Source: a virus (lineage: Duplodnaviria; Caudoviricetes). From it: a DNA stretch of 64,000 nucleotides. Shown piece after piece: positions 594-61,765 of the stretch; the stretch's first letter is position 1; each line of letters opens with the position of its first letter. Under the pieces are notes generated by a model. It was not told the origin of the DNA. It was given only the letters and a program-made list of their open reading frames with translations, and did no database searches. The DNA lies in IMG/VR virus record IMGVR_UViG_3300037781_000042, positions 147,582 to 211,581 of that record. The stretch is one strand, 5' to 3'. A program made the translations under genes and the position numbers.

Positions 594-2078
594 TTATATA
601 TTGACACTAGATTTACGCAATTCTTTTATTTGTTCTTCTAAATCACCTGGATTTTCTTCTACATTAATTCTACGAGCTTTAGGTAAAAAGTCTAATTTTT
701 CTATTTCATTATAACTTATATCTAACATACCCGTTATTTCTTTTTGTAATCCTTCAATAGAAGTAAGTTGATTTCCAAATAATATTATATTTCCTTTTAC
801 TAGAGGAATTTCTTTTAAAGTTTTAAGTTTTGTTCTTTGAGCAAATAAAGACCCATTTACTTTTTTAATATCTTCGAACTTTTCTATTTTAGTAAATCCT
901 ACAGTTAAATCTCCATCTACAATTTCTGGTCCACCTTTTAAAGAAGTTAAGTACTTATTATTTGAAAGATACAAATCTCCTACTTCCTGTGGGCAATGAA
1001 GTAAATTTATAATTTCAGTATTTTGACAATCTAAATCTCCTACTTTTACTGGAATTCCTTCTAAAGTCTTTAATGGATTATAAGAACAGTCGTATTCGCG
1101 ACCTACCTGTTTTGGTCCATCTACCAAACTAGGCAAATTGTTATAAGAACAATCAAAAATTCCTTCTACTATTTCTGGAGATCCTTCTAAATTTTCTAAT
1201 TTATTATTAGAGCAATTGAAATTTTCTGTAATTTTTCTGAATCTAATTCCTATATCTAATAAACTATTTAAATTTCTTCTAAATAAGTTTATGCTTCCAT
1301 CATAATCATAAGTTCCATCTCCATTATCAGTTAACTTATCTTCATTAATTCCATATTTTGTAAGTGTACGATGTAATTGAGCTTGAGGAGAAGTTAATTC
1401 TCTAGGCATAAAAATATTTTCATCAAGTCCTAACTCGTTCATAACATAATGCATTCCTATTTCTGTATCATTTGCATTATAAACAAGTCTTCTTTCATCT
1501 TCATAAACAGCTACTGCAATTTTGGAATAAGTTTTACTGTGTGATCTATTTTTATCTATAATGTAATAAAGAGTTACTCCTTGATTATAAACATAACTTT
1601 TAAAATAATTATCTTTTTTAGCAGCAGTACACCATCTAGTTCCTGATCCGTATTTACAACTAGATTCTATCGTTTGCGGAACAATAATTAAAAAATCATC
1701 ATTATCTAATATTACTTCTACCTCAGAAGTTTCTTTCTTTTCTTTATCTATTTCCTTTTTTCTTTTAAGTGCTTGTGTAATAAGCGAATCAAATTCTTCA
1801 TAAGAAAGTCTTTGAATATCTGCATTTATTAGATTTCTATTTTCTAATTCATGATAAGTCTCTATAGCAGAAGAAAGTTCAAATGGTTCTACTTTATCTT
1901 TTAAATGAAATTCAATTAATTTTTCTACATATTTAAAATTAGGACTTGGATCCATCTTTACAAACTCGTCAAACGTTTCCTTATCTATTTTATTTGTATT
2001 TAAAAATCTTCTTTTAGCACTTGCTTTAGATTCATTTAAACTTAAAAAGTCTCTATAATTTAAAAATTCTTTATTCAT
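594..2078 (-). CDS. family A protein: capsid-targeting-like tag + KYGxGTxWC domain + C-terminal LRR
   Basis: N-term MNKEFLNYRDFLSLNE; SCKYGSGTRWCTAA; repeats such as FNCSNNKLENLEGSPEIV. Confidence 0.75.
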   Translation of the reverse strand: MNKEFLNYRDFLSLNESKASAKRRFLNTNKIDKETFDEFVKMDPSPNFKYVEKLIEFHLKDKVEPFELSSAIETYHELENRNLINADIQRLSYEEFDSLITQALKRKKEIDKEKKETSEVEVILDNDDFLIIVPQTIESSCKYGSGTRWCTAAKKDNYFKSYVYNQGVTLYYIIDKNRSHSKTYSKIAVAVYEDERRLVYNANDTEIGMHYVMNELGLDENIFMPRELTSPQAQLHRTLTKYGINEDKLTDNGDGTYDYDGSINLFRRNLNSLLDIGIRFRKITENFNCSNNKLENLEGSPEIVEGIFDCSYNNLPSLVDGPKQVGREYDCSYNPLKTLEGIPVKVGDLDCQNTEIINLLHCPQEVGDLYLSNNKYLTSLKGGPEIVDGDLTVGFTKIEKFEDIKKVNGSLFAQRTKLKTLKEIPLVKGNIILFGNQLTSIEGLQKEITGMLDISYNEIEKLDFLPKARRINVEENPGDLEEQIKELRKSSVNI

Positions 2079-3235
2079 TATTCTATTATTCTTGGTGGTC
2101 TGTTTGAAATTACTTCTAATAAACCTAATTCTAACTCATCTCTTTTATTTGATTCTGGATTTATATTTTTAGGAGCTTCTGGAATTCTCCTATCTGGATT
2201 TACTTCTAAATTTCCTAAATCCAGTTGTTCTCTTCTAGCACTCGAAACATTTAATTCTCCTAAATCTAATTGTTCTCTTTCTGAACTTTCTGCATTTATA
2301 TTATCAGGAAGTCTAATTTCTCTTTTAAGTTTTGCTTCTTCAGCAGATTCTTCTTCAATATTTGAAATTTTTATTTTATTTGAATCTTTAAAATCTTGAT
2401 AATCTTCTTCCTTAGGTCTTCTTTCGTTTCCTTGTTCTGCATATAAACCAGTTTTAGGTCTAACGAAATTAGTTAAGAAATTAAAGTCTTGTCTATTATC
2501 ATCACTAAAGTAGCCTGTTCCTCCATATCCAAATAATTCTTTAGTAGGCAAATTATAAACTTCTAAAATTCTTCTAGGAATAATTTCAAATGTATGTTTT
2601 ATATCATCTTCGGTTCCTTCATTAGTAATAGAAGATGCAAGTCCCGAATAATCATCAAAAACAAATTCACAATCTCTAAGCTTTAAAACAATTACTCCTT
2701 GAGAATCATCATCATATTCTAATTTATTTCCATTTCTCTTAAGTAGTATTCTAGGATCTATAAGATAAATAGACATATCAAAAAATCTTAAATTTTTAAC
2801 TAAAACGTCTCTCATATATTTTTTATCTTGAACTGTTGATCTATAAGCTTCCATTAAAGATAAAAATTTCATATCGACAGATTCTCTAGAAGATACCGTA
2901 AAAGAAGTTCCTTCAGGAAGTCTTGGACCTTCGTTATTTAAAGTTAAAAGATCATTTACTCCTGAAAGTTGAGTAAACCACCAAGGTTCTTCAATAGAAA
3001 ATTTTCTTAATAAATTAACAAAATAATCTAATTTTTGAACTCTTAAATCGTCTCCTCTTGAAGATAGAAAATCTCTAGCACCTCCTGAAAGTAATCCAGG
3101 TTCTAAAGATTCGTCAGGAGAAATTCTAGGAAAAAATTCAAAACGCAAACCAAATGTTAAATATAATGGATCTTGAACTCCATCTACACTTCTATTTATA
3201 AATCTATTTCTATAATTATCGTACTTATTTATCAT
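2078..3235 (-). CDS. hypothetical protein, possibly tail/baseplate structural, with three C-terminal acidic repeats
   Basis: 385-aa ORF; repeats NAESSEREQLDLGEL / NVSSARREQLDLGNL / NPESNKRDELELGLL; structural role is only a guess. Confidence 0.45.
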   Translation of the reverse strand: MINKYDNYRNRFINRSVDGVQDPLYLTFGLRFEFFPRISPDESLEPGLLSGGARDFLSSRGDDLRVQKLDYFVNLLRKFSIEEPWWFTQLSGVNDLLTLNNEGPRLPEGTSFTVSSRESVDMKFLSLMEAYRSTVQDKKYMRDVLVKNLRFFDMSIYLIDPRILLKRNGNKLEYDDDSQGVIVLKLRDCEFVFDDYSGLASSITNEGTEDDIKHTFEIIPRRILEVYNLPTKELFGYGGTGYFSDDNRQDFNFLTNFVRPKTGLYAEQGNERRPKEEDYQDFKDSNKIKISNIEEESAEEAKLKREIRLPDNINAESSEREQLDLGELNVSSARREQLDLGNLEVNPDRRIPEAPKNINPESNKRDELELGLLEVISNRPPRIIE

Positions 3236-3245
3236 TTGTATCTAT

Positions 3246-4151
3246 TTAAAATTCTAATCCTGTATCTTCTAAATCTTTAGCTTCTTTATTCCATTTATAA
3301 ACTTCTTGATTTATAGATAATTTAATATTATTTTCTTCTGAATAAGAAAGAAGTTTTCTACATGAGGGTAGATCCCAATCCATTAAATCTTCTATAATCT
3401 TCTTTTGTTCTTCTTCTGGTAAAGATACTAGATATTTTATTGAATCTTCGTATTTTTCTTGAGGTTCAACTTCTATATTTCCTTTAACTTCAAAAGTAAA
3501 TTTTTTAGAAAGTATATTGTTACGATGACACCGGAAATCGCCACCTACAGACTTAAGATTTTCAAGACCTTTCAAACTGGTTAACTTGTTACCATGGCAC
3601 GCAAAAGTACCATCTACAAACTTAAGACTTTGAAAACCTTCTAAACTAGTTAACTTATTATAATGCAACCATAAATCCTCTCCTACAGACTTAAGATTCT
3701 CAAGCCCTTTTAAACCGGTTAATTTGTTATTATCACACCTGAAAGAGCCACCTACAAACTCAAGATTCTTAAGACCTTCTAAAGTAGTTAACTGGTTTTT
3801 AGAACATAAAAAATAATCACGTACAGACTTAAGACTTTCTAAACCTTCTAAACTAGTTAATTTGTTATTAGAACAATCGAAATCGCCACCTACAGACTTA
3901 ATTCTAAAAGGTAACTTAGTTAACTTCATTTCACTTAAATTTATATCCCCTGTACAAGAGACATACCCTTCTTCACCTATTGTCCAAGCACCAGATAAAC
4001 GATGCTTCCTAGTTGGAGTCTTTTTCCCTTCTAGGTTTTCTTGGATCCATTTTTTAACTTCTCCAGGATCTTCTAAAGGAAACCTAGATTGATCGAAACC
4101 TTTGCTTTCGTTTATAAACTCTGTATAATTTTTTATCTGTTTAGTTATCAA
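3246..4151 (-). CDS. family B LRR protein (23-aa repeats) with capsid-targeting-like tag
   Basis: MITKQIKNYTEFINE; FDQSRFPLEDP block; about six xFxCxxNKLTxLxGLExLKxVG repeats; ends LEDTGLEF. Confidence 0.8.
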   Translation of the reverse strand: MITKQIKNYTEFINESKGFDQSRFPLEDPGEVKKWIQENLEGKKTPTRKHRLSGAWTIGEEGYVSCTGDINLSEMKLTKLPFRIKSVGGDFDCSNNKLTSLEGLESLKSVRDYFLCSKNQLTTLEGLKNLEFVGGSFRCDNNKLTGLKGLENLKSVGEDLWLHYNKLTSLEGFQSLKFVDGTFACHGNKLTSLKGLENLKSVGGDFRCHRNNILSKKFTFEVKGNIEVEPQEKYEDSIKYLVSLPEEEQKKIIEDLMDWDLPSCRKLLSYSEENNIKLSINQEVYKWNKEAKDLEDTGLEF

Positions 4152-4591
4152 TTTTCTTTATTTTTGTTTTTTACATTTGCTAACTTCTTTTTAGTTAGTA
4201 TCAATTTCATCATCATTGCAAGCAATAATGAATTTTCTTCTCTATTTAATACATAAGCAAAATTTTCTTTTAAAGACCACTTACTGATAAATTCTCTCAT
4301 ATTTAAAGAAGATACATCAATTGCAATTGCATCTATTTCTCTAGTAACTTCTTCTGCTCCAAAAGAACCATCGTTATTAAAGCTTCCTAAAAAACTTATT
4401 CTTTTAGAATCTACTTCTAGTTCTAATTCGTCTAAAATTTCTGCTAAAACGTCGTGAGTTTCATCTTGAGGCTCTACTATAAAAGGTCTATTATTTAAAA
4501 CATTTTCAGAATAATAAACTCCTAACTGCCCTTCCTTTGTCATAGTATACAAAAGAAATCCCATTTTAGTATATTCAATATTATTTGGCAT
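4148..4591 (-). CDS. hypothetical protein, possible degenerate Nudix-like fold
   Basis: 147 aa; EPQDETHDVLAEILDELELEV...FLGSF loosely resembles a Nudix box lacking key residues. Confidence 0.35.
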   Translation of the reverse strand: MPNNIEYTKMGFLLYTMTKEGQLGVYYSENVLNNRPFIVEPQDETHDVLAEILDELELEVDSKRISFLGSFNNDGSFGAEEVTREIDAIAIDVSSLNMREFISKWSLKENFAYVLNREENSLLLAMMMKLILTKKKLANVKNKNKEN

Positions 4592-5813
4592 TAATACTCC
4601 CTAATACTGGAGCCCATCTTCTCTGTAAAAAATCATACATAGAAGTTTTCTCCTTGTTATTTTTCCAAGTTAACTTTTTCCTTAAAGTAACTCCTTTTAA
4701 ATCATCAATTGCATCTTTACCCAAAGAAGGATTGTTTTCTATTGTCAAGGTACCTGAAATGTTTTTCGGTAAACCTTTTAAACTTGTTAATTTTTTATTT
4801 CCTTCTATTTTAAAACTTTCAACACCTTTAAATTCTGAAAAATCTACGCTTTCTAAAGATTCTAGATCTGTATCAGAAATAACAATTGCTCCTGTTATTT
4901 TAAAATCTATATTCTTCATTCTAGAAAAATCGATATAAGGAATATCAGAATTTACATAAAAATCTTTAAAATGAATCTGTTCAACGTTTTTTTCAACATT
5001 ATGTCCTATTTTAGGATTATGATTGTGAACTAAAATTTTTCTGCTTTCTCCTTCTGGTTCAGGTTTTTCTAAAAGCTTTTTAATTTTATCTGGTAAAGCA
5101 TTCCACCAAATTCTTCTTTCTTCATTCATTCCAGTATCTAAAATAGGATTAAATGAAGAATCAGGTGCGTCCCAAAAATTAGAAAGCTGTCCACTATAAT
5201 TTACTTGGGCAGCAACCTTATATAAAGGATTTTTATCTTCACTCGAAACGGGTTGACTATCAAAAGCTTTGTTTGTTATAACATAAAAATGTTGTCCTTG
5301 TCTCCAAAAATAATCGTTCCAGTGTACTGGAGTTAAAAACGTAATACACCATTTAGTTCCTGATCCTATCTTTTTTGCTCCTGTCCAATTAAATACTAAA
5401 TGACATCTCCAAGCATCGTCATCATAAACCATTACACTATTTTCAGAAATTTCTTTTTTCTTCTTTTGTGTATTAGAAATCTTTCCTCTAGCATCTATAA
5501 TAACTTTTTCAAAGTCATCTATTTCAGAATATCTTTGAATGTCTTTATCGTTTCCACTTATTATATTTCTATTTGTTTTTTCGTGAAACTCTTCTATTAA
5601 ATGACTAAGAGCCATTATTCTTTCCAGTTCCATGATTTGAGAATAATTTTCATGATCTTTCATTTGAAGAAAGAAGTCACACATTTTCTCAATATATTTT
5701 TTATTATTTGTTGGATCTGCAGATAAAAGCTGTGTAAAAGTAGAACTGTTGATTCTTCCAGTTTCTACAAATCTTTGTTCTGCTTGTTTTTTACCTTCAT
5801 TAAGATGTTGCAT
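4581..5813 (-). CDS. family A protein (KxGxGTKWC domain, short C-terminal LRR-like region)
   Basis: MQHLNE; ADPTNNKKYIEKM; KKIGSGTKWCIT; NKKLTSLKGLPKNISG. Confidence 0.7.
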   Translation of the reverse strand: MQHLNEGKKQAEQRFVETGRINSSTFTQLLSADPTNNKKYIEKMCDFFLQMKDHENYSQIMELERIMALSHLIEEFHEKTNRNIISGNDKDIQRYSEIDDFEKVIIDARGKISNTQKKKKEISENSVMVYDDDAWRCHLVFNWTGAKKIGSGTKWCITFLTPVHWNDYFWRQGQHFYVITNKAFDSQPVSSEDKNPLYKVAAQVNYSGQLSNFWDAPDSSFNPILDTGMNEERRIWWNALPDKIKKLLEKPEPEGESRKILVHNHNPKIGHNVEKNVEQIHFKDFYVNSDIPYIDFSRMKNIDFKITGAIVISDTDLESLESVDFSEFKGVESFKIEGNKKLTSLKGLPKNISGTLTIENNPSLGKDAIDDLKGVTLRKKLTWKNNKEKTSMYDFLQRRWAPVLGSINAK

Positions 5814-5852: not shown

Positions 5853-6521
5853 CTATTGTTTTACGTACCTGTCTAAGTATTCATAACAACATTTTAAAAA
5901 CCATTCAAAAGTATCTGTTCCTTTAAATAATTTTAAATAAACATTCCATATTTGACCTTTAACATGATCTACAGGTTCTACTTCTTGTAAAGTTCTTTCT
6001 ATTTTTTCTTTATTCCACTTCAATTGATTTTGGAACTTATTCATTTGTTCATTTGCATAAGCTCTTATTTCTTCAAAAGTAGAAAAATATTTAATATCAT
6101 CTTCTAAATCAGAGCCTTCCATAAAAGGTCTTTTAGGATTTAAAGAATCTTGTTGATGTGTCATTTCATGAACTAAAGAATCTTCTAATCTAGACATCCA
6201 ATTATCCCATTTAGTATCATTTTCTTTTATAGAAAGAACATCTGGCTGTAGTAAAATATGTACTTGTTCATCTTTAGAATTATGAAATGCTGGACTTCCT
6301 TCTAATTCTGGAAAATCTTTGTAAGTATGAAATACTACGTCATATTTTTTAGTTACCATTGTTAAATATTCAGCAAGCTCCTCTAAAGAAGTTACTTTAG
6401 ATTGAATAAAATCTTTAGATCTAGCAACGTCTTTTTTAATTAATTCAATAGCATCCCATGGGATTGATGTTGATACTTTTTCATTTATAAATTCTTTATA
6501 TGTCTTAAATTCTTTATTCAT
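5853..6521 (-). CDS. putative zincin-type metallopeptidase with capsid-targeting-like tag
   Basis: LVHEMTHQQD (HExxH) with downstream EEIRAY candidate third ligand; N-term MNKEFKTYKEFINE. Confidence 0.6.
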   Translation of the reverse strand: MNKEFKTYKEFINEKVSTSIPWDAIELIKKDVARSKDFIQSKVTSLEELAEYLTMVTKKYDVVFHTYKDFPELEGSPAFHNSKDEQVHILLQPDVLSIKENDTKWDNWMSRLEDSLVHEMTHQQDSLNPKRPFMEGSDLEDDIKYFSTFEEIRAYANEQMNKFQNQLKWNKEKIERTLQEVEPVDHVKGQIWNVYLKLFKGTDTFEWFLKCCYEYLDRYVKQ

Positions 6522-6859: not shown

Positions 6860-6865
6860 ATAACT

Positions 6866-6884
6866 TATATATCCTTAATATATA
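6866..6884. promoter_or_regulatory. back-to-back RATATATA late-promoter-like motifs between divergent genes
   Basis: GATATATA on - (6866-6873) and AATATATA on + (6877-6884), 6 and 4 nt from the respective ATGs. Confidence 0.45.
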
Positions 6885-6888
6885 GTTT

Positions 6889-8862
6889 ATGAAAGATTCT
6901 CCTTGTAAAGATTGTAGTTGCGAGACTATTTATAGAAAAATTGAACGTCCTAAAACATACCAATTCGGGGTAGATAGTGACCAATGGATAAAATATTATG
7001 TTCCTGTAGATGATTATGCGGATGTAGCTGGTGCTGATTATTTTACATCTTATGAGGACATGGAAACAGATTACAATTCTACTGCTTTAGTAGCCTCTTT
7101 AGCAACTAAATTTTTATCTAATGGTCCGGGGTTTGATCCTTGGCACGATACTATAGAAGAAGCTGTAACATATTTAGATAGTTTTGATTATACGTTTGGA
7201 GGTTCATTTCCAGCAAATTCTTTTTATTGGACAATTATTTATGTAACTAATCCTAATTATGGAAAAGAATTACAATATGATTCTTCAGTATTAAGTTGGC
7301 CAATAAATCAAGATGCTATTTGTTATGACGAATTAAAAGATCCTTTTTGGAAAATTAAATTTCCTATATGTGGATCGAATGGAAAAAAAGACAAAGACAA
7401 TACTTTTAAATTTAAAGATTGTGGTATCTGGAACGTAGAATATAGACTAAGACTTCGTCCTTTAGTATTTTTTGGTTGGCCAGAAGATGGAGATACTTGT
7501 GCAGATCATTGGTTAGAATCGGGAGAAGAAGTAGATAATACTGAAAATAGAACTAAGCTATGGAATACGTATAGATTTTATAGTGCTATGAAAGAACAGG
7601 CAGGAGCAAAATATTTAGGAATGACTAAGCTTAGATTAGAAACTGGAATATTTAATGAAGATAGTCAAACACAAAAACCTATAGTTTGGTCAGAAGGAAA
7701 ATATCCTCAGCCAGTAATTAAATATAAAGACTATTGGGATTCAAATTATGAAAATGGTAAATATCTTTATTATAAGGAATGCTCGCCTACTCAATGGGAA
7801 GGAATGCATCCTCATTTAATATCTTCTGATATGGAAGAAACTGAAGTAGTTTATAAACAATTTAACTACAGTTTTACTTCAGGTTCTGTAAGTGAAGGAT
7901 TATTTGAAGTAACTACAAATGATTTTGATAATCCTGGCGATATTATTCTTTCTAAAAAATCACAACTAAAAGGAGATCAATATAATACAGCAGACATTCC
8001 TTTAAAATATAGGTTAGATGAACCTGATAGATTTTTCAGTAACTGTTTAGAAAATCAATATGCTTCTCCAACAGGAGATGTTGAAATTGTACAAAGAGCT
8101 TTTATAAATGGTGAATGGAAAAAACTTCGTAAAGTTAGTTATAGTTTAATAGAAGTCGTAGAAAATCCTACTTCAGTTACTTTAGATGTAGATGTAGGAA
8201 CAGTTATTAATTATGATGTAGGTAACATTGAAGATACTGATACATTTTATAATGGAACTACGTATAAAACAAAATATGAAATTTTAGTAAGTATAGAAAA
8301 AGTAACTAAATCTGTTCCTAAAATGGATTATGCAAACGTTACTATAGGAAATGTTACTGAATTAACAGATGATTTTGTTTATGAATTGGAAGGATTTACT
8401 CATGTAGATATGGATAAACAAAAAGAAATTTCTATTTATCTTAAAGCTTTACCAGATTCTCCTAGCGGGCATCCTTTAGAACATGATACTGGATTTACAA
8501 TGCCAGGTATTTCTTCTATACAACCAACTAAAAATGGATCTGACCCTGCAATTATAAATGAATCAGATACCATGCCTGAAAAATATTGGCCTTGGGGTGT
8601 ACTTTCTGCAGATGAAAGAACAGGCTATCAAGAACAATTTAAAAAAGTATACGAACCTTTACTTCCTATTCGTCCTGATCTTATTGATTTTGATGCTACT
8701 GGAACTGGGATAATAGATAATGTTAGAGCAGGGCAAGCATATAGATGGGGTCACGTTCTTTCTGATGAAAATTGGATAGGAAGAAAAAATCCTTTCTGGT
8801 ATATTATGATAGAAGAAGGATGGATTAGATTAACTAAAACATGCGAAGGTTGTTGTGATTAA
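6889..8862 (+). CDS. hypothetical protein, possibly virion structural
   Basis: 657-aa ORF with Cys clusters at both termini (CKDCSC; CEGCC). Confidence 0.6.
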   Translation: MKDSPCKDCSCETIYRKIERPKTYQFGVDSDQWIKYYVPVDDYADVAGADYFTSYEDMETDYNSTALVASLATKFLSNGPGFDPWHDTIEEAVTYLDSFDYTFGGSFPANSFYWTIIYVTNPNYGKELQYDSSVLSWPINQDAICYDELKDPFWKIKFPICGSNGKKDKDNTFKFKDCGIWNVEYRLRLRPLVFFGWPEDGDTCADHWLESGEEVDNTENRTKLWNTYRFYSAMKEQAGAKYLGMTKLRLETGIFNEDSQTQKPIVWSEGKYPQPVIKYKDYWDSNYENGKYLYYKECSPTQWEGMHPHLISSDMEETEVVYKQFNYSFTSGSVSEGLFEVTTNDFDNPGDIILSKKSQLKGDQYNTADIPLKYRLDEPDRFFSNCLENQYASPTGDVEIVQRAFINGEWKKLRKVSYSLIEVVENPTSVTLDVDVGTVINYDVGNIEDTDTFYNGTTYKTKYEILVSIEKVTKSVPKMDYANVTIGNVTELTDDFVYELEGFTHVDMDKQKEISIYLKALPDSPSGHPLEHDTGFTMPGISSIQPTKNGSDPAIINESDTMPEKYWPWGVLSADERTGYQEQFKKVYEPLLPIRPDLIDFDATGTGIIDNVRAGQAYRWGHVLSDENWIGRKNPFWYIMIEEGWIRLTKTCEGCCD

Positions 8863-9791
8863 GCAGAACCAAATTTGTTAGGATCTAAACTTTTAAAATA
8901 ATCTAAAGATTGCATTTCTACCTTTTCAGGATCAAATTTAATATAAGGATCTTTTTCAGGTTCTGGAGCAGATGCTAAAGTTATAGTTTTTTGTTGATTT
9001 GTATTTCCTAAAATCTCTTCTTTTTTAACAGAAGCTAAATTAGCAGATCCTTTTAATGTAGTAGCTAAAGTAGCTATAGTTTTTTCTACATCTTTTAAAG
9101 GTTTAATTTTTCCTTTTCTTATCTCATTTTCTAATCTTTTAGCAGATCTTTTTCTAGCAGTCCCTTCTGATTCTCCTGTTCCAAAACCTACAACTCTATT
9201 TACATAATCTATATCAGTAAGTCTTTCTTTTTTAGCTCTTTCAAAATATTTTACTGCTATATCAAAAGCATATTCAGGATCAGCTGCTAACTCAGGATTA
9301 TTTACTAAATCAACTCCTAATTGCTTAGATGCTTTAGTATAATTGTGTTTTCCTGTAAGTTGAATTAAGCCACCTCCTCTATATTTATAACCATCTTCAA
9401 ATTTGTCATTTCCTAAATCTTTTCTTTTTCCATAAAGAACTCCAAATAAATATTCTGGTCCTTTTTTTATAGCTGCTTGTGCATGTTGAATAGTAGGAAA
9501 TTTAACTGCATTTTTTCTTTTACTCTTTTGCTGTTCTTTAGGGCCCCAAAGTTCCATTAATCTTTCAGCAGAATAATTAGTTAATTCTCTTTTAGGAATA
9601 AAACCGGATTCATGCTTTATTTGTGCTAAAATGTTAGCTTGTGCTTTAGGATCTGTTATCCCTGCTTCAATTAATTTACTAAGTAAGATGTTCTTATTTA
9701 ATTGCACTAACTTTTCTTGATCAGATTTTGCAACCTTTCTCCAATTAAAAGTATCTTCGTTTAATTTATAATCTGTGTATTTTATAATCAT
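8859..9791 (-). CDS. glycoside hydrolase family 19 (chitinase/lysozyme-like) peptidoglycan hydrolase
   Basis: ANILAQIKHESG and DGYKYRGGGLIQLTGKHNY are typical phage GH19 motifs. Confidence 0.85.
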   Translation of the reverse strand: MIIKYTDYKLNEDTFNWRKVAKSDQEKLVQLNKNILLSKLIEAGITDPKAQANILAQIKHESGFIPKRELTNYSAERLMELWGPKEQQKSKRKNAVKFPTIQHAQAAIKKGPEYLFGVLYGKRKDLGNDKFEDGYKYRGGGLIQLTGKHNYTKASKQLGVDLVNNPELAADPEYAFDIAVKYFERAKKERLTDIDYVNRVVGFGTGESEGTARKRSAKRLENEIRKGKIKPLKDVEKTIATLATTLKGSANLASVKKEEILGNTNQQKTITLASAPEPEKDPYIKFDPEKVEMQSLDYFKSLDPNKFGSA

Positions 9792-12166: not shown

Positions 12167-12480
12167 TTTTTCTTTTTACGTTTCTTTTTTCTTAAATATT
12201 TTGATTTAACTCCTTTTTTAGTACCATTCATAAGATTAGAAAAAGATTGAATTAATTTTTGAGGGTCTCCGTCCTTTAAATTTTTAGTAAGCATTCTTTC
12301 AAGTTCTTTTTTTCCTTCTTCGCTTGAAAATTTTTCATTAATTTTTTCTAAATCTAAATTTTCAGGATCTAAAGCAAATTGTTTTTGAACCTCTTCAGCT
12401 ACTTCTTCTGCAGATTCAACAATATGATCTACGTTACCTAATTCTTCTTTTAATAGTTCTTTATTCGAAGTTTCTTTCAT
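12163..12480 (-). CDS. hypothetical protein
   Basis: 105 aa; acidic N-term, Lys-rich C-term. Confidence 0.55.
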   Translation of the reverse strand: MKETSNKELLKEELGNVDHIVESAEEVAEEVQKQFALDPENLDLEKINEKFSSEEGKKELERMLTKNLKDGDPQKLIQSFSNLMNGTKKGVKSKYLRKKKRKKKK

Positions 12481-12483
12481 AAT

Positions 12484-12648
12484 CTATATATCTTTCCTTA
12501 ATGTAGGATCAATTGGTTGTTGTTTCTTTTTCTTTTGTTCTTTACTAAATTCTACTAAGTTTTCTAAAATTTCTTCAAATCTAAAATAATCAATAGAATC
12601 TACATCTGAAAGACTTATTGGAAATCTTTCAAATATTAATTTAGACAT
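12484..12648 (-). CDS. T4 gp51-like small baseplate assembly protein
   Basis: Preferred ATG at 12648 just after the upstream stop; ISLSDVDSIDYFRFE resembles the gp51-type motif; follows a gp26-like gene. Confidence 0.4.
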   Translation of the reverse strand: MSKLIFERFPISLSDVDSIDYFRFEEILENLVEFSKEQKKKKQQPIDPTLRKDI

Positions 12649-14785: not shown

Positions 14786-16408
14786 ATGAATAAAATAGTA
14801 AAAGGATATACAGAATTTTTAAATGAATCTAAAGCAACTGCTAAAAGAAGGTTCTTAGAAACAGATAAAATAGATAAAGAAACTTTTGATAAATTAGTTT
14901 CTATAGATCCAAGTTCATCATTTAAATATGTAGAAAAAATGATCGAATATCACTTAGAACATAAAGTTGATGTAGAAGCTTTAGAAAAGCAAATAAAAGA
15001 ATTTGACAAATTATCTTCTAGAAATTTAATTAAAAATAAAGATATTCAAAGATTAAGTTATGAAGATTTCAAAAAGGAAATAGATCAAGGGTCAACTAAA
15101 CTAGAAACTAAAGAATATCAGAAAGAAAAAGAAGAGGGAATACAGGTTATTCTTGATAATGAATATTTTAGAGTAGTTGTTCCAGATACAGAAGAAGCTT
15201 CTTGTAAATATGGTCAAGGAACTAGATGGTGTACGGCTGCTACCAGATCGCAAAACCGTTTTAAAGAGTATCGATACAGAGATGATGTTACTCTTTACTA
15301 TATTTTAGACAAAAGAAAATCTAAAGAAGACAGTTTACATCAAATTGCTGTAGCTATTTATCCAAACGGAAATTCTAACGTATTTGATGCAACAGATTAT
15401 TCTATGTCATTTGAAGAAATTCCAAAAGAATTGTTTAAATATATTCCAGCAAATACCTTTAGACCTAGGAATTTAAGTATTGAATTGAATCAATTTGAAA
15501 AATTTGGGATAGAGAAAAATAATTTAAAAAAATTAGAAAATGGGTTATACTACTATAAAGGAGATCTTCATTTAAGTAAAGAAGTATTTGATTTTTTAGA
15601 AAAAGAAAATATTTATTTAGAAGCTGTAGAAGGAACTATAAAAATATTAAATGATGATAAATTAACAAATCTTAAAATGCTTCAACATTTAAAAGTTGCA
15701 ATTTCATTTATTTTAGAAGGATGTGAAAATTTAACTTCTTTAGAAGATCTTAAACAGTTAACACATATACATAAATATCTTACTATAAGACATTTAAACA
15801 TTACAAATTTAAAAGGATTAGAAAACTTACAACAAGCAACATATCTTAATTTAGGGTACAACCAATTATATACTTTAGAACATCTTAAAAGCTTAACAGA
15901 GGTGGAAGACTTGTCTTTACCTAATAATAAGTTAACAAATTTAAAGGGGTTAGGGAAAATTAAATCTCTTTATACTCTGAACGTACAAACAAATTATTTA
16001 AAAGATTTTAAAGGTTTAGAAAAATTAGAAAAATTATTTATGTTATATTGTTCAAACAATCAAATTGAAAATTTTAACGGTTTAGAAGGATTAAAAAATG
16101 AAAAAATATTTAGTATTTCTATAATTAAAAATAAATTAACAATTTTAAAATTTCCATCTTCAATTAAAATTATAGAAAATATAAATCTACATAAAAATCC
16201 TATAATTTCTCCTAAAACAAAAATAGAAATACAGGATATTATACATAATTATACAGGAAGCGGATTTAATTTAAAAACAGGAATTGAAGAATTTTTGAAA
16301 TTAACAAAGGAAGAACAAGAAAGAGCTTTAGAAAAATTAAAAGACTGGGATCCTGAAGCCTACAATAAAACATTAAAATATATAAATAAAATGAACAATA
16401 AAAAATAG
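14786..16408 (+). CDS. family A protein: capsid-targeting-like tag + KYGxGTxWC domain + LRR
   Basis: MNKIVKGYTEFLNE; SCKYGQGTRWCTAA; LxxLxLxxNxL repeats; C-term LKDWDPEAY. Confidence 0.8.
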   Translation: MNKIVKGYTEFLNESKATAKRRFLETDKIDKETFDKLVSIDPSSSFKYVEKMIEYHLEHKVDVEALEKQIKEFDKLSSRNLIKNKDIQRLSYEDFKKEIDQGSTKLETKEYQKEKEEGIQVILDNEYFRVVVPDTEEASCKYGQGTRWCTAATRSQNRFKEYRYRDDVTLYYILDKRKSKEDSLHQIAVAIYPNGNSNVFDATDYSMSFEEIPKELFKYIPANTFRPRNLSIELNQFEKFGIEKNNLKKLENGLYYYKGDLHLSKEVFDFLEKENIYLEAVEGTIKILNDDKLTNLKMLQHLKVAISFILEGCENLTSLEDLKQLTHIHKYLTIRHLNITNLKGLENLQQATYLNLGYNQLYTLEHLKSLTEVEDLSLPNNKLTNLKGLGKIKSLYTLNVQTNYLKDFKGLEKLEKLFMLYCSNNQIENFNGLEGLKNEKIFSISIIKNKLTILKFPSSIKIIENINLHKNPIISPKTKIEIQDIIHNYTGSGFNLKTGIEEFLKLTKEEQERALEKLKDWDPEAYNKTLKYINKMNNKK

Positions 16409-20152: not shown

Positions 20153-20160
20153 AATATATA
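20153..20160 (+). promoter_or_regulatory. AATATATA late-promoter-like motif
   Basis: Upstream of 20186. Confidence 0.4.
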
Positions 20161-20185
20161 AATTATAATTCAATCTTAGTATATA

Positions 20186-30404: not shown

Positions 30405-30417
30405 TTCATTCTCCTAT

Positions 30418-32091: not shown

Positions 32092-32104
32092 TTTATTCTC
32101 CTAT

Positions 32105-53920: not shown

Positions 53921-54259
53921 TTAATTAAACTGTGCGATGTAAGTTCCTAATATAACTAATCCTGAAAACAAATAAGTTCCTATAAAAATTGCAACTTGTG
54001 CAATTATAAAAGTAGGATTTGTCTTTGCTTTATGATAATTTACTTTTCCATACAAGTAAGTCATACTAGATGCAATTATTGTAGTTACTACAGCATACCA
54101 TAAAAGCAATAAAGTAACTTTAAATTCTTCTATTTTAAATCCAGCAAAAAGCATTAAAGCAAAAAATGCTCCAAGTAAAATTATCCATCTTAACATTGTA
54201 GGCGAATCTAAAATCCACTCTTTAACACTTACATATATTTCTTTAATTTTATTTAACAT
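53921..54259 (-). CDS. small three-TM membrane protein, holin candidate
   Basis: Three hydrophobic segments in 112 aa, near the CHAP hydrolase. Confidence 0.45.
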   Translation of the reverse strand: MLNKIKEIYVSVKEWILDSPTMLRWIILLGAFFALMLFAGFKIEEFKVTLLLLWYAVVTTIIASSMTYLYGKVNYHKAKTNPTFIIAQVAIFIGTYLFSGLVILGTYIAQFN

Positions 54260-54752
54260 ATTCTTTCTCTAAAGTTTCTTTATTATTTTCATCTAAAATA
54301 AATTCCATTACTATATTAGTTAAATCATCGTATGCTTCATGTCTAATATCTTCCCAAGGTTTCCATCCCGATTCTTTGATTATATAGTGAATTTCACTAC
54401 AAATATTTTTTGCTTGCGGTATATGACTTTCTATAAAATCTAAAAATTCTTGATAAAAAGAATTTACTTCGTATTCTGCTCCATATCCGGCATGACCTCC
54501 ATACTCTTCATCTTCTTCGTTCCAATGTTCAATTACTGCATTTCCATTACCATTATTAAAAGCTTCATAGTACAATCTACTAACTGCTCTTAAAAGTTCC
54601 CCTTTTACTGTTTCTGCTGCTCCTTGATCAGGAACGAGTTCATCATAAAGTTTTTTATATTCTTCTTGATATTTACCCCTTTCATCCCAATATGAAGATT
54701 CATTTATTTGTTGAAAGCTTTCATAACTTTCTACTATTCTTTCTTTATTCAT
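54249..54752 (-). CDS. acidic hypothetical protein with capsid-targeting-like N-terminus
   Basis: MNKERIVESYESFQQINE. Confidence 0.6.
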   Translation of the reverse strand: MNKERIVESYESFQQINESSYWDERGKYQEEYKKLYDELVPDQGAAETVKGELLRAVSRLYYEAFNNGNGNAVIEHWNEEDEEYGGHAGYGAEYEVNSFYQEFLDFIESHIPQAKNICSEIHYIIKESGWKPWEDIRHEAYDDLTNIVMEFILDENNKETLEKEYVK

Positions 54753-56194: not shown

Positions 56195-56674
56195 TTAATG
56201 CCTAAATATTTTGTGAGAATAAAATTCATTATATACAATATCATCTTCTATAGTCGTTTTAATGTGATGCATTATCTCATCCATTTTAGATTTTTTTTCT
56301 GGATGTTTTTCAATGAATTTTTTAAATTCTTCTGGAAATTTAACTTCTATTTCATCTACTACTATCTTATCCATATCAGATCCTTCTAAATGTCCTTCTG
56401 CCTCAAATTCAATCAAAGTTGCTCCGTCTTCAAAAATATCTTCTTCCCATTCATTAAAAAATTCTGCAAGAACTGATTCTCTATCCTCAGGATAATTTCC
56501 TTCTTCATCTTTATCAAAAGGAAAAACTTTTTCGTAATCAGGAGCATCTTCTAAAAAATATTCTCCATCTTCGATTTTCCAATATTGAGCTCCTTCAGCA
56601 TCTTCAGGATATCCCCATTCATTTAATTTAAAATATTCACTAAAACTTTCTACTATTCTATTTTCTTTTTTCAT
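56195..56674 (-). CDS. acidic hypothetical protein with capsid-targeting-like N-terminus
   Basis: MKKENRIVESFSEYFKLNE. Confidence 0.6.
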   Translation of the reverse strand: MKKENRIVESFSEYFKLNEWGYPEDAEGAQYWKIEDGEYFLEDAPDYEKVFPFDKDEEGNYPEDRESVLAEFFNEWEEDIFEDGATLIEFEAEGHLEGSDMDKIVVDEIEVKFPEEFKKFIEKHPEKKSKMDEIMHHIKTTIEDDIVYNEFYSHKIFRH

Positions 56675-57402: not shown

Positions 57403-57798
57403 TTATTCTACTTCGTCTTCGTCTTCAGTTTCTTCTTTCTTTTTAGGTTTAGGCTCATCTAAAAGAGCAATTTCTTCAGGTTTTTCTGGCTCTCCTTCAG
57501 TATCATCAAATAAAAGACCTGCAGGTTCTCCTCCTTTCATATCATCAAAACTTGCTACGGGTTCTAAATCAGTACTTGAAAGTTGTGCAAAAGTTTGAGC
57601 ATCTAATTCATGATATAGATCGTGCATGTCCTTTTCTATCGTTGCCAATTTTACTTGGACCCAATCCGGTAAATCGTCTTGTGGTTGAAATAAATCAGAA
57701 GTTTTTTGAGAATATTCTGATATTGATTTTAATTGTGAGTGTGCTAAAGAACCTCCAGATAATCTTTCGTTTCCTATTGTTGCTTCAAATAATTTCAT
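57403..57798 (-). CDS. hypothetical phage protein
   Basis: 131 aa; LPDWVQVKLA motif; N-term MKLFE; AATATATA at 57829-57836 upstream. Confidence 0.6.
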   Translation of the reverse strand: MKLFEATIGNERLSGGSLAHSQLKSISEYSQKTSDLFQPQDDLPDWVQVKLATIEKDMHDLYHELDAQTFAQLSSTDLEPVASFDDMKGGEPAGLLFDDTEGEPEKPEEIALLDEPKPKKKEETEDEDEVE

Positions 57799-57838
57799 AC
57801 TTTTATTTTAATTTTTCTTAATATAAACTATATATTTT

Positions 57839-58681
57839 TTAAAATTCCAATCCTGTATCTTCTAAATCATTAGCATGTTGATGCCAGATACTCTCTTCTT
57901 GATCTATAGATAGTTTTATATTATTTTCTTTTGCATAAGTAAGTAATTTTCTATAAGCTCTACTATCAAAATCTACTAAATCTTCTAGAACCTTCTTCTG
58001 TTCTTTTTCACTTAATAATACTAAATATTCTACTGAATCTTCATATTTATAAGGAAAGTTAACATTATCAAAGGTAAAATTTCCTTTAATTTCAAAAGGA
58101 ACCTTTGTAGAAAGTAACTTATTATCATAACAAGAAAAAATTCTTCCTGCTTGCTCTAGACTCTCTAGACCATTAAGACTAGTTAACATATTCGTATAAC
58201 ACAAGAAATCTCCTCCTACAAACTTTAGATTTTCTAGTCCTTTAAAACTAATTAACTTGTTATCATAACACCAGAAACTACCTCCTACAGACTCTAAATT
58301 CTCTAGACCCTTAAAATTAGTTAAATTGTTCATCTGACACTCAAACCTTCTTCCTATAAACTTTAAACTCTCTAACCCCTCAAGAGTAGTTAACTTGTTC
58401 TCGCAACAATAAAAATCAACTCCTACATATTTAATTTTAAACGGTAACTTAGTTAAGTTCATAAAAGATAAATTTAAAACTCCAGTAGTACTAAAATACC
58501 CCTGTTCATCTATATTCCAATCTCCTGATAATATCAATTTACCCAAATAATCTTTTTTTCCTACTAGATGTTCTTCTATCCATTGTTTTACTTCTTCAGG
58601 ATCTTCTAAAGGAAACCTAGATTGATCTAACTCTTTACTTTCATTTATGAACTCTTTATATGTTTTAAATTCTTTATTCAT
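57839..58681 (-). CDS. family B LRR protein with capsid-targeting-like tag
   Basis: MNKEFKTYKEFINE; LDQSRFPLEDPEEVK; about five 23-aa repeats; ends LEDTGLEF. Confidence 0.8.
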   Translation of the reverse strand: MNKEFKTYKEFINESKELDQSRFPLEDPEEVKQWIEEHLVGKKDYLGKLILSGDWNIDEQGYFSTTGVLNLSFMNLTKLPFKIKYVGVDFYCCENKLTTLEGLESLKFIGRRFECQMNNLTNFKGLENLESVGGSFWCYDNKLISFKGLENLKFVGGDFLCYTNMLTSLNGLESLEQAGRIFSCYDNKLLSTKVPFEIKGNFTFDNVNFPYKYEDSVEYLVLLSEKEQKKVLEDLVDFDSRAYRKLLTYAKENNIKLSIDQEESIWHQHANDLEDTGLEF

Positions 58682-58683
58682 TT

Positions 58684-60992: not shown

Positions 60993-61025
60993 AAAAACCT
61001 CCAAATGAACTTAATCAAATGGAGG
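60993..61025 (-). terminator. probable rho-independent terminator
   Basis: CCTCCA...TGGAGG imperfect stem followed by TTTTT on - strand, after the 61058 stop. Confidence 0.55.
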
Positions 61026-61057
61026 AAACATAACTATTAACAAATGGAAATAAAAGT

Positions 61058-61765
61058 TTAGTTTTCTACTATCATTGAATCTTCTTTTAAATCTTCTAAA
61101 TAAATATCTTTTATAACTTCTTCACCGCCATACATAAGTATTTCCGCCTCTATCCATCCAGAATAACTTAAAGATTCTACTTCTTTTCCTCTAAACGTAT
61201 ATCCTAAATCTTCTTTTTGATATTGTAAATTCTCCCAAAGTACAGGAATACCATCTTTTTCTATAGGACAATCATTTGACAATGTCATATAATCAACATT
61301 AACATTTTCTACATTATGATCGTCGATATAAACTTCAAGTCTAATTTTTCCTGGAAAATCAACAGATTCTATATCTTTTCCATCATACGTATATTGTCCT
61401 CTATTAAATGAAGTATCAGTTGGAATTCTAGTAAAAGCTTCAAACCAAGTATACGACTTATTTGTTTCTCCAGGTCTTTGAGGTCTTCCTGAAATAGATT
61501 TATAAAAAGCTTCATATTCTTCTCTTAAATTTTCACCATATATCTGATCCCATAGAGTAACAATTTCTTCTTTAGAAGCTCTTCCATTATAATCATCATC
61601 TAATGCTCTATAAAACCCTTCGTACTCTTCTTCCATGTTTTCACCATATACTTCATCCCATAAAGTAACGATTTCATCAATTGAAAATTTACTGTCTTCA
61701 TTTTCATTTAATTTATTTTTAAAGTAGCCATCAAATGATTCTACTATTCTATTTTCTTTTTTCAT
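61058..61765 (-). CDS. acidic hypothetical protein with capsid-targeting-like N-terminus and internal duplication
   Basis: MKKENRIVESFDGYFKNKLNE; EIVTLWDEVYGENMEEEYEGFY / EIVTLWDQIYGENLREEYEAFY repeat; AATATATA at 61798-61805. Confidence 0.65.
   Translation of the reverse strand: MKKENRIVESFDGYFKNKLNENEDSKFSIDEIVTLWDEVYGENMEEEYEGFYRALDDDYNGRASKEEIVTLWDQIYGENLREEYEAFYKSISGRPQRPGETNKSYTWFEAFTRIPTDTSFNRGQYTYDGKDIESVDFPGKIRLEVYIDDHNVENVNVDYMTLSNDCPIEKDGIPVLWENLQYQKEDLGYTFRGKEVESLSYSGWIEAEILMYGGEEVIKDIYLEDLKEDSMIVEN

What the first reader, a model, noticed from the sequence alone, without database searches (positions are those of the whole stretch)
594..61765. Capsid-targeting-like N-terminal tag shared by about a dozen unrelated proteins: a packaged effector payload
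Seen: MNKEFLNYRDFLSLNE (2078), MITKQIKNYTEFINE (4151), MQHLNE (5813), MNKEFKTYKEFINE (6521 and 58681), MIIKYTDYKLNE (9791), MNKIVKGYTEFLNE (14786), MKRKYTQSFSDRLNE (16413), MNKEFKTYKEFLNE (22598), MNKERIVESYESFQQINE (54752), MKKENRIVESFSEYFKLNE (56674), MKKENRIVESFDGYFKNKLNE (61765). The 14-residue tags of the zincin (6521) and an LRR protein (58681) are identical in protein and differ by three synonymous changes, and the proteins diverge right after NE. No replication gene carries the tag. Known: the T4 internal-protein capsid targeting sequence is MKTYQEFIAE, cleaved after Glu by prohead protease gp21. Inference: this is a portable packaging tag that loads LRR binders, a protease and other cargo into the head for injection, a much larger payload than T4 IPI-III.
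Basis: partly seen in the sequence, partly recalled or inferred. Interest (0 to 1): 0.85.

Follow-up and report, generated by a model that had tools for sequence, protein, structure and literature searches.

The report
T4-like head-packaging tags on phage cargo
An uncultured 211-kb phage puts a short N-terminal peptide, almost identical to phage T4's "pack me into the head, then cut me off" signal, on about two dozen mostly unrelated proteins. This is a much enlarged case of a known mechanism, and it lets the phage's probable packaged (and perhaps injected) protein set be read from sequence alone.

Summary
All 12 N-terminal tags sit at the stated coordinates, and the whole 211,581-bp genome has at least 22-26 such tags.

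- **Likeness to T4:** The main tag type, MNKEFKTYKEF[IL]NE, matches 7 of 9 residues of the T4 capsid targeting sequence MKTYQEFIAE. The match includes the residues mapped for targeting (Y, F) and for processing (I, E).
- **Machinery:** The genome encodes a T4 gp21-type prohead protease fused to a scaffold, and a gp23-type capsid protein. Both carry [LIVM]NE sites where cleavage is expected.
- **Expression context:** Tagged genes lie downstream of a promoter-like motif shared with capsid, sheath and fibre genes. The replication genes in the window are untagged.
- **Cargo:** "Unrelated" is only partly right. The 12 window proteins fall into 8 families: two LRR families, a GH19 wall hydrolase, an HExxH protein and small acidic proteins.
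- **Relatives:** Similar tags occur in phage PAU (two tagged proteins are annotated "internal capsid protein"), in a 462-kb huge phage and in other uncultured contigs.

Packaging, cleavage and injection are inferred, not shown. I file this as a new member of a known kind. The scan had already noted the same tag family in other windows of this genome.

The parts
594..2078 (-). Tagged cargo, 494 aa. Leader MNKEFLNYRDFLSLNE (nt 2031-2078), then a virus-only N-terminal domain plus leucine-rich repeats.
   Evidence: N-terminus. LRR-type weak Pfam hits and phrog_28193/17056. Paralogue relations. An orthologue in L076 keeps the ...SLNE|SK junction.
3246..4151 (-). Tagged cargo, 301 aa, small LRR family. 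Leader MITKQIKNYTEFINE (nt 4107-4151), TTG start.
   Evidence: LRR_4 E=1.7e-6; 42-55% identical to 22598-23392, 57839-58681 and genome 144956.
4581..5813 (-). Protein of 410 aa with a 6-residue mini-leader MQHLNE (nt 5796-5813). Same N-terminal-domain family as 594-2078.
   Evidence: The orthologue in L076 has an 11-residue leader MNTKRSNILNE and the same junction NE|[SG]KKQAE. The leader has a cleavage-type site but lacks the aromatic targeting residues.
5853..6521 (-). Tagged cargo, 222 aa. Leader MNKEFKTYKEFINE (nt 6480-6521). HEMTH motif at residue 118, so a possible small zinc peptidase.
   Evidence: A 69% identical orthologue carries a different leader, MKVKRYNEFINE. Only weak structural likeness to ArdC/M78-type zincins.
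8859..9791 (-). Tagged cargo, 310 aa. Leader MIIKYTDYKLNE (nt 9756-9791), then a GH19 lysozyme-like cell-wall hydrolase domain.
   Evidence: Glyco_hydro_19 E=2e-8 and phrog_181 endolysin E=7.6e-45. In L076 the same slot and the same leader carry a different middle part with a weak CHAP hit.
14786..16408 (+). Tagged cargo, 540 aa. Leader MNKIVKGYTEFLNE (nt 14786-14827), then the shared N-terminal domain plus LRR.
16413..17249 (+). Tagged cargo, 278 aa, acidic, no known family. Leader MKRKYTQSFSDRLNE (nt 16413-16457).
   Evidence: The orthologue in L076 keeps MKRYTQSFSDR but not LNE.
22598..23392 (+). Tagged cargo, 264 aa, small LRR family. Leader MNKEFKTYKEFLNE (nt 22598-22639). Lies directly behind a 797-aa gene that is preceded by the promoter-like motif.
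54249..54752 (-). Tagged cargo, 167 aa, acidic (mature net charge -20). Second tag type, MNKERIVESYESFQQINE (nt 54699-54752).
56195..56674 (-). Tagged cargo, 159 aa, very acidic (net -28). Second tag type, MKKENRIVESFSEYFKLNE (nt 56618-56674).
57839..58681 (-). Tagged cargo, 280 aa, small LRR family. Leader MNKEFKTYKEFINE (nt 58640-58681).
   Evidence: A tagged homologue lies on IMG/VR contig 3300037590_000072.
61058..61765 (-). Tagged cargo, 235 aa, very acidic (net -31), with an internal repeat. Second tag type, MKKENRIVESFDGYFKNKLNE (nt 61703-61765).
   Evidence: The promoter-like motif lies 39 nt upstream.
28866..35301 (-). Four tandem untagged paralogues (512-557 aa) of the 594-2078 family. 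Each begins (MSLK...) at the residue that follows NE in the tagged copies.
   Evidence: BLASTP alignments start at residues 2-6 of the untagged copies against residue 1 of the mature tagged copies. The genes are tightly packed, leaving no room for a leader.
6860..6890 (.). Two overlapping, divergent copies of the promoter-like motif ATATATA[AG]xTTAT (6860-6872 minus strand, 6878-6890 plus strand). They head the minus-strand run 6859 to 162, which holds four tagged genes.
12479..12491 (-). Promoter-like motif ATATATAGATTAT heading the minus-strand run that ends with the tagged GH19 gene.
20154..20166 (+). Promoter-like motif heading 20186-22579 and the tagged LRR gene 22598-23392.
57823..57835 (-). 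Promoter-like motif heading the minus-strand run with tagged genes 56195-56674 and 54249-54752.
61792..61804 (-). Promoter-like motif heading tagged gene 61058-61765, the 747-aa gene and tagged LRR gene 57839-58681.

Best explanation
The leaders are homologues of the phage T4 capsid targeting sequence (CTS). The proposed mechanism has three steps:
1. A 12-21-residue N-terminal peptide, with core aromatic-x-[ED]-[FY]-[LI]-N-E, directs each protein into the scaffolding core of the assembling prohead.
2. The gp21-type prohead protease, here fused to the scaffold, cuts after the Glu of [LI]NE.
3. The mature protein stays inside the head with the DNA and probably leaves with it at infection.

The phage uses this address on at least 22-26 proteins, 12 of them in this window. 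They include two LRR families, a GH19 wall hydrolase, an HExxH protein and many small acidic proteins.

Shown here: the tags, their likeness to the T4 CTS, the machinery, the matching sites in capsid and scaffold proteins, the shared promoter-like motif, and conservation in relatives.

Inferred: targeting, cleavage at NE, retention in the head and ejection into the host.
For: 1. **T4 likeness.** T4 IPII/IPIII start MKTYQEFIAE|A and the window tag contains KTYKEFINE. All 7 proteome windows with at least 6/9 identity to the T4 core are N-terminal. Y, F, I and E are the residues mapped for targeting and processing in T4 (PMC9026906). A related 32-kb contig has MKTYREFIKE.
2. **Machinery.** Peptidase_S77 scores 56 bits and Gp23 scores 100 bits in the same genome.
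3. **Cleavage-type sites.**
   - The capsid protein has ...LAMNE|ADGG at residues 52-60, upstream of its conserved core. This parallels T4 ...FLTE|AEIGG.
   - The protease-scaffold has VNE|S, INE|M, LNE|T, VNE|S and INE|S between and after its domains.
4. **Enrichment and position**.
5. **Portability.** Identical tags sit on non-homologous proteins with only synonymous DNA changes. Orthologues keep the junction while the tag and cargo drift. The same tag sits on GH19 here and on a different middle domain in L076. Untagged paralogues start exactly at the junction.
6. **Co-regulation.** The motif ATATATAG[AT]TTATA precedes the capsid, protease-scaffold, two sheath, two fibre and an adaptor-like gene. 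It is found 7 times in the window against 0.78 expected. 23/26 tagged genes lie within 5 kb downstream of it, against 60/238 untagged genes.
7. **Replication genes are untagged**.
8. **Relatives.**
   - PAU has about 20 MKT[LI]xx[LM][YF]E leaders clustered in its head module. Its depositors named gp142 and gp154 'internal capsid protein'.
   - In LR756500, 20 of 25 heptad hits start at residue 7 or 8.
   - 10 IMG/VR contigs carry the LR756500-type tag.
Against: - No experimental datum for this phage: no virion proteome, no N-terminal sequence, no isolate.
- The capsid protein is too diverged to align with solved T4 structures by sequence, so its cut site is inferred.
- Most cargo is acidic, unlike the basic T4 internal proteins, so behaviour inside condensed DNA may differ.
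- The classic T4 late promoter TATAAATA is not associated with these genes. The substitute motif is a candidate only, and in five cases it overlaps the annotated start codon.
- PTm1 and Lak-A1, which share the capsid lineage, show no clear tag family.
- MQHLNE and some second-type leaders lack the T4-like core.
Confidence: 0.8

Rival explanations
1. The leaders are propeptides of head-internal structural or assembly proteins (accessory scaffold or 'inner body' parts). The prohead protease trims or degrades them, and they are not delivered into the host as effectors.
For: - The scaffold part of the protease-scaffold protein consists of about 10 tandem 14-residue repeats containing Y-S-E-Y-[LIV]-A-E, which resembles the tag core.
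- Many tagged proteins are small, acidic and without known domains, as scaffold-like proteins often are.
- In PAU the tagged genes sit inside the head module.
- T4 itself cleaves scaffold proteins gp22/gp68 at similar sites.
Against: - Cargo includes folded binder and enzyme domains (LRR, GH19, HExxH) that make little sense as disposable scaffold.
- The tagged and untagged paralogue pairs suggest one function delivered by two routes.
- In T4, proteins carrying this tag are retained and ejected (PMC9026906, PMC3012670).
Confidence: 0.12
2. The tag is a processing or activation signal only. The protease removes it to switch on enzymes such as the wall hydrolase, or it addresses proteins to another virion part such as the baseplate or tail. 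It does not target them to the head.
For: - One small LRR paralogue (genome 144956) overlaps the stop codon of a baseplate-hub-like gene.
- A cluster of second-type tagged genes lies between the two sheath genes.
- MQHLNE has a cut site but no targeting residues.
Against: - In T4 the gp21 protease is active only inside the prohead (established T4 knowledge; PMC9026906).
- The conserved residues upstream of the cut site (aromatic pair, [ED]) match those mapped for targeting, not for processing.
- The tag is conserved on proteins with no enzymatic domain to activate.
Confidence: 0.05
3. The shared N-termini are an RNA-level or translation-initiation feature, or a relic of gene duplication, with no role as a peptide.
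For: AT-rich, Lys/Asn/Glu-rich starts are common in a 27% GC genome. Several tagged proteins are paralogues.
Against: - Identical peptides are encoded with synonymous differences and have unrelated 5' flanks.
- Substitutions are conservative at the peptide level (Y/F, I/L, E/D).
- Leader length varies while the C-terminal [LI]NE is fixed.
- The tags sit on at least 14 unrelated families genome-wide.
- Versions in other phages keep the peptide core with different codons.
Confidence: 0.03

Closest known systems
Phage T4 capsid targeting sequence (CTS) of internal proteins IPI, IPII and IPIII (Mullaney & Black 1996; reviewed in PMC9026906 and PMC3012670)
   Same: - An N-terminal leader of about 10 residues directly after Met.
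- Core Y-x-E-F-I-x-E ending in an [LI]-x-Glu site for a gp21-family protease.
- Attached to unrelated mature proteins.
- A gp21/gp22/gp23-type head assembly system in the same genome.
- 7/9 residue identity.
   Different: - At least 22-26 tagged proteins instead of three.
- A 4-5-residue N-terminal extension (MNKEF).
- Asn fixed at the position before Glu.
- A second leader type (MKKENRIVESF...LNE).
- Cargo mostly acidic, and including LRR families and a wall hydrolase.
- Protease fused to the scaffold.
- Host lineage probably Bacteroidota rather than enterobacteria.
- Nothing shown experimentally.
T4 Alt (ADP-ribosyltransferase packaged in the head; short N-terminal propeptide)
   Same: A large enzyme cargo with a very short leader ending in [LI]-x-E. 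T4 Alt begins MELITE; the window's 4581-5813 protein begins MQHLNE.
   Different: The exact Alt cut site was not verified here. The window protein has no known enzymatic domain.
Sphingomonas (Sphingobacterium) phage PAU gp142 and gp154, annotated 'internal capsid protein'
   Same: Same capsid lineage (MCP 32% identical). About 20 proteins carry a common leader, many ending KLNE. The depositors already called two of them internal capsid proteins.
   Different: The leader sequence differs (MKT[LI]xxLYE[AS]KLNE). The tagged genes are concentrated in the head module. I found no paper describing the tag family.
Propeptide-bearing inner-body and ejection proteins of phiKZ, 201phi2-1 and SPN3US, cleaved by gp175/gp245 (PMC9026906, PMC5694885, PMC7411985)
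   Same: Giant phages with many head-internal proteins, processed after Glu by a gp21-related protease. The payload is large.
   Different: Those propeptides are long and not a short shared address. The cleavage motif is different ([SAG]-x-E) and the capsid lineage is different.
T7 gp16 and other ejected internal proteins with muralytic domains; P1 Dar head-internal anti-restriction proteins (PMC9024508)
   Same: Precedents for a wall-degrading enzyme and for defence-countering proteins carried inside the head and ejected. They parallel the tagged GH19 protein and the possible ArdC-like HExxH protein.
   Different: They have no shared cleavable T4-type tag, and their incorporation mechanisms are unrelated.

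Membership tests
T4-type capsid targeting sequence (CTS) | Leader lies at the extreme N-terminus, about 10-20 residues, directly after the initiator Met | tested here: met
   All 12 window tags and the further genome tags begin at Met or at an internal Met a few codons in. In LR756500 the core starts at residue 7 or 8 in 20 of 25 occurrences.
T4-type capsid targeting sequence (CTS) | Sequence likeness to MKTYQEFIAE, including Y4 and F7 (targeting) and I8 and E10 (processing) | tested here: met
   KTYKEFINE against KTYQEFIAE is 7/9 identical, with Y, F, I and E conserved. This is met for the main tag type. The second type (RIVESF..[FY]..LNE) keeps only the aromatic pair and the [LI]-x-E end.
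T4-type capsid targeting sequence (CTS) | Ends in an [LI]-x-Glu site and is removed by a gp21-family prohead protease | tested here: inconclusive
   The site is present in every tag. Matching sites exist in the capsid propeptide and the protease-scaffold linkers. Cleavage itself cannot be tested here.
T4-type capsid targeting sequence (CTS) | Same genome encodes a gp21-type protease, a scaffold and a gp23-type major capsid protein | tested here: met
   PF03420 at 56.3 bits and PF07068 at 100 bits, both over their cut-offs. The scaffold repeats follow the protease domain in one 655-aa ORF.
T4-type capsid targeting sequence (CTS) | Portable: the same leader on mature proteins unrelated to one another | tested here: met
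   At least 14 BLASTP-unrelated families genome-wide, 8 in the window. The identical 14-residue tag sits on the HExxH protein and on an LRR protein.
T4-type capsid targeting sequence (CTS) | Tagged proteins are expressed with the head genes (late) | tested here: inconclusive
   A motif shared with capsid, sheath and fibre genes lies upstream of the tagged transcription units. It is not proven to be a promoter, and the T4 late consensus is not used.
T4-type capsid targeting sequence (CTS) | Tag is sufficient to load a protein into the head, and the mature protein is ejected with the DNA | not testable with these tools
   Needs virion proteomics or tag-reporter fusions in an isolate or in T4.
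Zincin metallopeptidase (cargo 5853-6521) | HExxH motif on an active-site helix plus a third zinc ligand, in a zincin fold | tested here: inconclusive
   HEMTH is conserved in the 69% identical orthologue. There is no Pfam or PHROG hit. Atlas TM scores are 0.41-0.45 to ArdC/M78-type proteins. The AF2 model has pLDDT 58 and Foldseek found nothing at E<=0.001.
Glycoside hydrolase family 19 (cargo 8859-9791) | Match to the GH19 catalytic domain over the family threshold | tested here: met
   PF00182 at 34.7 bits (cut-off 25.5), covering part of the domain, and phrog_181 endolysin at E=7.6e-45. Catalytic residues were not checked.

The most novel reading that the evidence does not exclude
The tag may be one free-standing copy of the 14-residue repeat (..Y-S-E-Y-[LIV]-A-E-N..) that builds the scaffold half of the protease-scaffold polyprotein. 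On this reading, cargo enters the prohead by co-assembling with the scaffold through repeat mimicry and is released by the same cuts that dismantle the scaffold.

The address is ancient: it is near-verbatim from T4 to 200-460-kb phages of other hosts. Sequence alone would then predict the packaged proteome of uncultured huge phages. Tagged and untagged paralogue pairs would mark functions needed both on arrival and later in infection.
Probability: 0.25. Interest if true: 0.8.

Novelty: new member of a known kind. Interest (0 to 1): 0.6.

Why it matters
What large phages carry into the cell besides DNA is mostly unknown, because nearly all of them are uncultured. If this tag works as in T4, a simple N-terminal motif search would list the candidate packaged proteins of this phage lineage, including a 462-kb phage.

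Here the list holds two expanding LRR binder families, a wall hydrolase, a possible ArdC-like peptidase and many small acidic proteins. These are plausible first-minute counter-defence and entry factors.

The result also shows that the T4 address peptide is conserved far beyond the T-even phages. That is relevant to the use of CTS fusions as a protein-delivery tool, and to how scaffolds recruit cargo.

Tried and rejected
- **Complex prediction.** Complex prediction with the scaffold repeat region (2 copies) and the first 40 residues of a tagged LRR protein gave no verdict. It is not used as evidence either way.
- **T4 late promoter.** TATAAATA occurs upstream of only 10 of 264 genes and is not linked to tagged or head genes. 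I dropped it in favour of the motif found upstream of the capsid gene.
- **Scaffold-repeat HMM.** An HMM built from scaffold 14-mers cut in a poor register found nothing. A heptad-anchored score was used instead, and I treat it as suggestive only, because paralogous tags inflate it.
- **Finding relatives by capsid protein.** The search for related loci with the capsid protein in IMG/VR returned no relative. phmmer of the capsid protein against PDB returned none.
- **Other lineage members.** PTm1 has no coherent tag family. A Lak-A1 pattern scan gave one spurious hit. So the tag is not universal in this capsid lineage.
- **Zincin test.** The AF2 model had low confidence and Foldseek against PDB gave nothing significant.
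- **Extra candidates not counted.** A PSSM search for further tags found only weak candidates: 35440-37230 MKNYTEYSKDLE, 28158-28829 ...IIHFNE, 52979-53305 MRLYEAFDGYWE and 57403-57798 MKLFEATIGNE.
- **False positives.** 44937-46505 (RecA with intein, ...WYEDINE) and 48276-49499 (PolB piece, ...ELLNE at residue 26) match [LI]NE but not the tag pattern, and I treat them as chance.

Full report
**Where the window lies.** The window is the last 64 kb of a single 211,581-bp IMG/VR viral contig (27% GC, CheckV estimate 82% complete). By capsid protein its nearest named relatives are:
- a 462-kb uncultured phage, LR756500 (36.6% identity);
- the Lak megaphages;
- phage PAU (32%);
- Chryseobacterium phage MA9V-1;
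- Tenacibaculum phage PTm1.

**The observation.**
- The tags at 6521 and 58681 encode the same 14 residues and differ at three synonymous positions in 42 nt. Their 5' flanks are unrelated, and their mature parts share no BLASTP similarity.
- Outside the window the genome holds more tags, at genome positions 6955, 17139, 17787, 33060, 33348, 132745, 133440, about 133930, about 134250, 139939 and 144956. Looser variants lie at 37323, 138317 and 138561. The total is at least 22-26.
- [LI]NE begins within the first 22 residues 26 times, against 6.5 expected (P about 7e-9). A stricter tag pattern occurs 18 times in N-termini, against 10 times in the other ~60,000 residues.
- A position matrix separates the tags cleanly from internal sequence.
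- Two tag types exist. The first is MNKEFKTYKEF[IL]NE and its relatives. The second is MKKENRIVESF..[YF]..LNE.

**"Unrelated" is only partly right.** In the window:
- three tagged proteins are 42-55% identical small LRR paralogues (3246, 22598, 57839);
- three share a virus-only N-terminal domain, two of them followed by LRRs (594, 14786, 4581);
- the other six are singletons.

Four tandem paralogues of the second family (28866-35301) have no tag. They begin exactly at the residue that follows NE in the tagged copies. This is strong evidence that the leader is a separable module.

**Comparison with T4, done on T4 itself.**
- IPII and IPIII read from NC_000866 begin MKTYQEFIAE|A. The window's KTYKEFINE matches 7 of 9 positions.
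- In the whole proteome, the only 7 windows with at least 6/9 identity to the T4 core are N-terminal tags. PTm1 and PAU each give a single internal chance hit.
- The conserved positions (Tyr, Phe, Ile, Glu) are those the T4 literature assigns to targeting (residues 4 and 7) and processing (residues 8 and 10) (PMC9026906).
- A related 32-kb IMG/VR contig even has MKTYREFIKE on a 131-aa protein. It also has MNKPVKNYTTFINE on a MoxR-like AAA ATPase and MNKEFKTYKEFLNE on an LRR protein.

**The machinery.**
- The genome encodes a Peptidase_S77 (T4 gp21) domain at the start of a 655-aa ORF, and a Gp23-family capsid protein just downstream. Both score above the Pfam cut-offs.
- The capsid protein carries ...LAMNE|ADGG at residues 52-60, upstream of the conserved core. 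PTm1 has ...IINE|S at the equivalent place. T4 has ...FLTE|AEIGG (the cleavage position comes from established T4 knowledge).
- The protease-scaffold ORF has VNE|S, INE|M, LNE|T, VNE|S and INE|S sites in the linker after the protease domain and near the C-terminus.
- [LIVM]NE is therefore a coherent candidate cleavage motif, a narrower version of T4's [LI]-x-E.

**An unexpected detail in the scaffold.** Residues about 287-475 of the protease-scaffold ORF consist of about ten tandem 14-residue repeats containing Y-S-E-Y-[LIV]-A-E.
- The pattern [YF]-x-[ED]-[FY]-[LIVM]-x-E occurs 20 times in the proteome: 9 at N-termini, 6 in these repeats and 5 elsewhere.
- Tag heptads rank among the best matches to the repeat profile.
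- LR756500 has a similar repeat in its protease-scaffold.
- This suggests, but does not show, that the tag mimics a scaffold repeat unit.

**Expression context.**
- T4's late promoter TATAAATA is not used.
- A 14-nt motif, ATATATAG[AT]TTATA, lies 11-77 nt upstream of a same-strand ORF start in 24 of 25 genome hits.
- Those ORFs include the capsid gene, the protease-scaffold, two tail-sheath paralogues, two collagen-like fibre genes and an adaptor-like gene.
- The window has 7 copies, against 0.78 expected.
- 23 of 26 tagged genes lie within 5 kb downstream of a copy with no opposite-strand gene between, against 60 of 238 untagged genes.
- The window's recognisable replication and recombination genes are untagged. 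They are an Mre11-like protein, a DnaB-like helicase, RecA/UvsX with an intein, a PolB fragment, gp32 and an NAD ligase.

**Evolutionary behaviour.** A syntenic 11-kb contig (L076) carries orthologues of several window genes.
- The HExxH protein is 69% identical but has the leader MKVKRYNEFINE.
- The 4581-5813 orthologue has an 11-residue leader, yet the same NE|[SG]KKQAE junction.
- The slot of the GH19 gene holds a protein with the same leader (MIIKYSNYKKLNE) and a similar last ~35 residues, but a different middle part with a weak CHAP hit.

**Tags in other phages.**
- PAU has about 20 proteins starting MKT[LI]xx[LM][YF]E, many ending KLNE, clustered around its portal, protease and capsid genes. 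Its depositors labelled two of them 'internal capsid protein'.
- In LR756500 the heptad starts at residue 7 or 8 in 20 of its 25 occurrences.
- The LR756500-type tag is found on 10 IMG/VR contigs, seven times on one 429-kb contig.
- PTm1 and Lak-A1 show no clear tag family.

**Cargo.**
- LRR proteins.
- A GH19 lysozyme-like hydrolase, which recalls the ejected muralytic proteins of other phages.
- A 222-aa protein with a conserved HEMTH motif and only weak structural likeness to ArdC/M78-type zincins. "Protease" is therefore unproven.
- Several small, very acidic proteins of no known family.
- The shared N-terminal domain of the second LRR family is virus-only. In other phages it is fused to LRR, ankyrin or WG repeats (this is a lead only).

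**Verdict.** The best explanation is a T4-type capsid targeting and processing tag used on a much larger and more varied set of proteins than in T4 (confidence 0.8). The idea that the CTS lets T4-like phages load varied proteins is already in the literature (PMC9026906, PMC3012670), so this is a new member of a known kind rather than a new mechanism. What is new:
- the scale;
- the cargo types;
- the tagged and untagged paralogue pairs;
- the near-verbatim conservation of the address in a distant lineage of jumbo and huge phages;
- the possible link to scaffold repeats.

I found no paper describing it for this lineage. Other windows of this genome had already been flagged by the scan for the same tag family, and my results agree with those notes.

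Noticed in passing
Outside the window: G000:C1:58895-60862 (L001:1429-3348): The prohead protease is fused to the scaffold in one 655-aa ORF. The scaffold part is about ten tandem 14-residue repeats (..Y-S-E-Y-[LIV]-A-E-N-V-N-K..) whose core resembles the tag. LR756500 has a similar repeat, and PTm1 has a fused protease-scaffold with different repeats.
   Followed up: partly
window 8859-9791 and L076:3603-4922: The same leader and a similar last ~35 residues flank a GH19 domain in this phage but a different middle part (weak CHAP hit) in a syntenic relative. The wall-hydrolase module appears to have been swapped between constant ends.
   Followed up: partly
window 2078-3235: The 385-aa protein starts MINKYDNYRNRFINRS. 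This is tag-like, but Arg stands where the cleavable Glu should be. It may be a decayed or uncleavable leader.
   Followed up: no
window 44937-46505, 46498-47913 and 48276-49499: RecA/UvsX carries intein-type sequence and is preceded by a 471-aa ORF of no family. The family B DNA polymerase appears only as a 407-aa piece. The replication genes look fragmented, as other notes of the scan also say.
   Followed up: partly
window 18202-20097: A 631-aa fusion of a GT2 glycosyltransferase, TPR repeats and a GT25 glycosyltransferase. It is possibly linked to DNA or surface sugar modification.
   Followed up: no
Outside the window: G000:C1:134882-138238 and 140512-144075: Two large tail-sheath paralogues (1118 and 1187 aa), each behind the promoter-like motif, with a cluster of small second-type tagged genes between and before them.
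   Followed up: partly
window 6860-6890: Two copies of the promoter-like motif face outwards within a 29-nt gap between divergent genes and overlap both annotated start codons. Either the true starts lie further in, or the motif is not only a promoter.
   Followed up: no
L031:1961-3517 (IMGVR_UViG_3300037590_000072): In a relative, a MoxR-like AAA ATPase carries the leader MNKPVKNYTTFINE. Next to it lies a protein with a metallopeptidase-like HExxH motif. This suggests that large enzymes can also be cargo.
   Followed up: no
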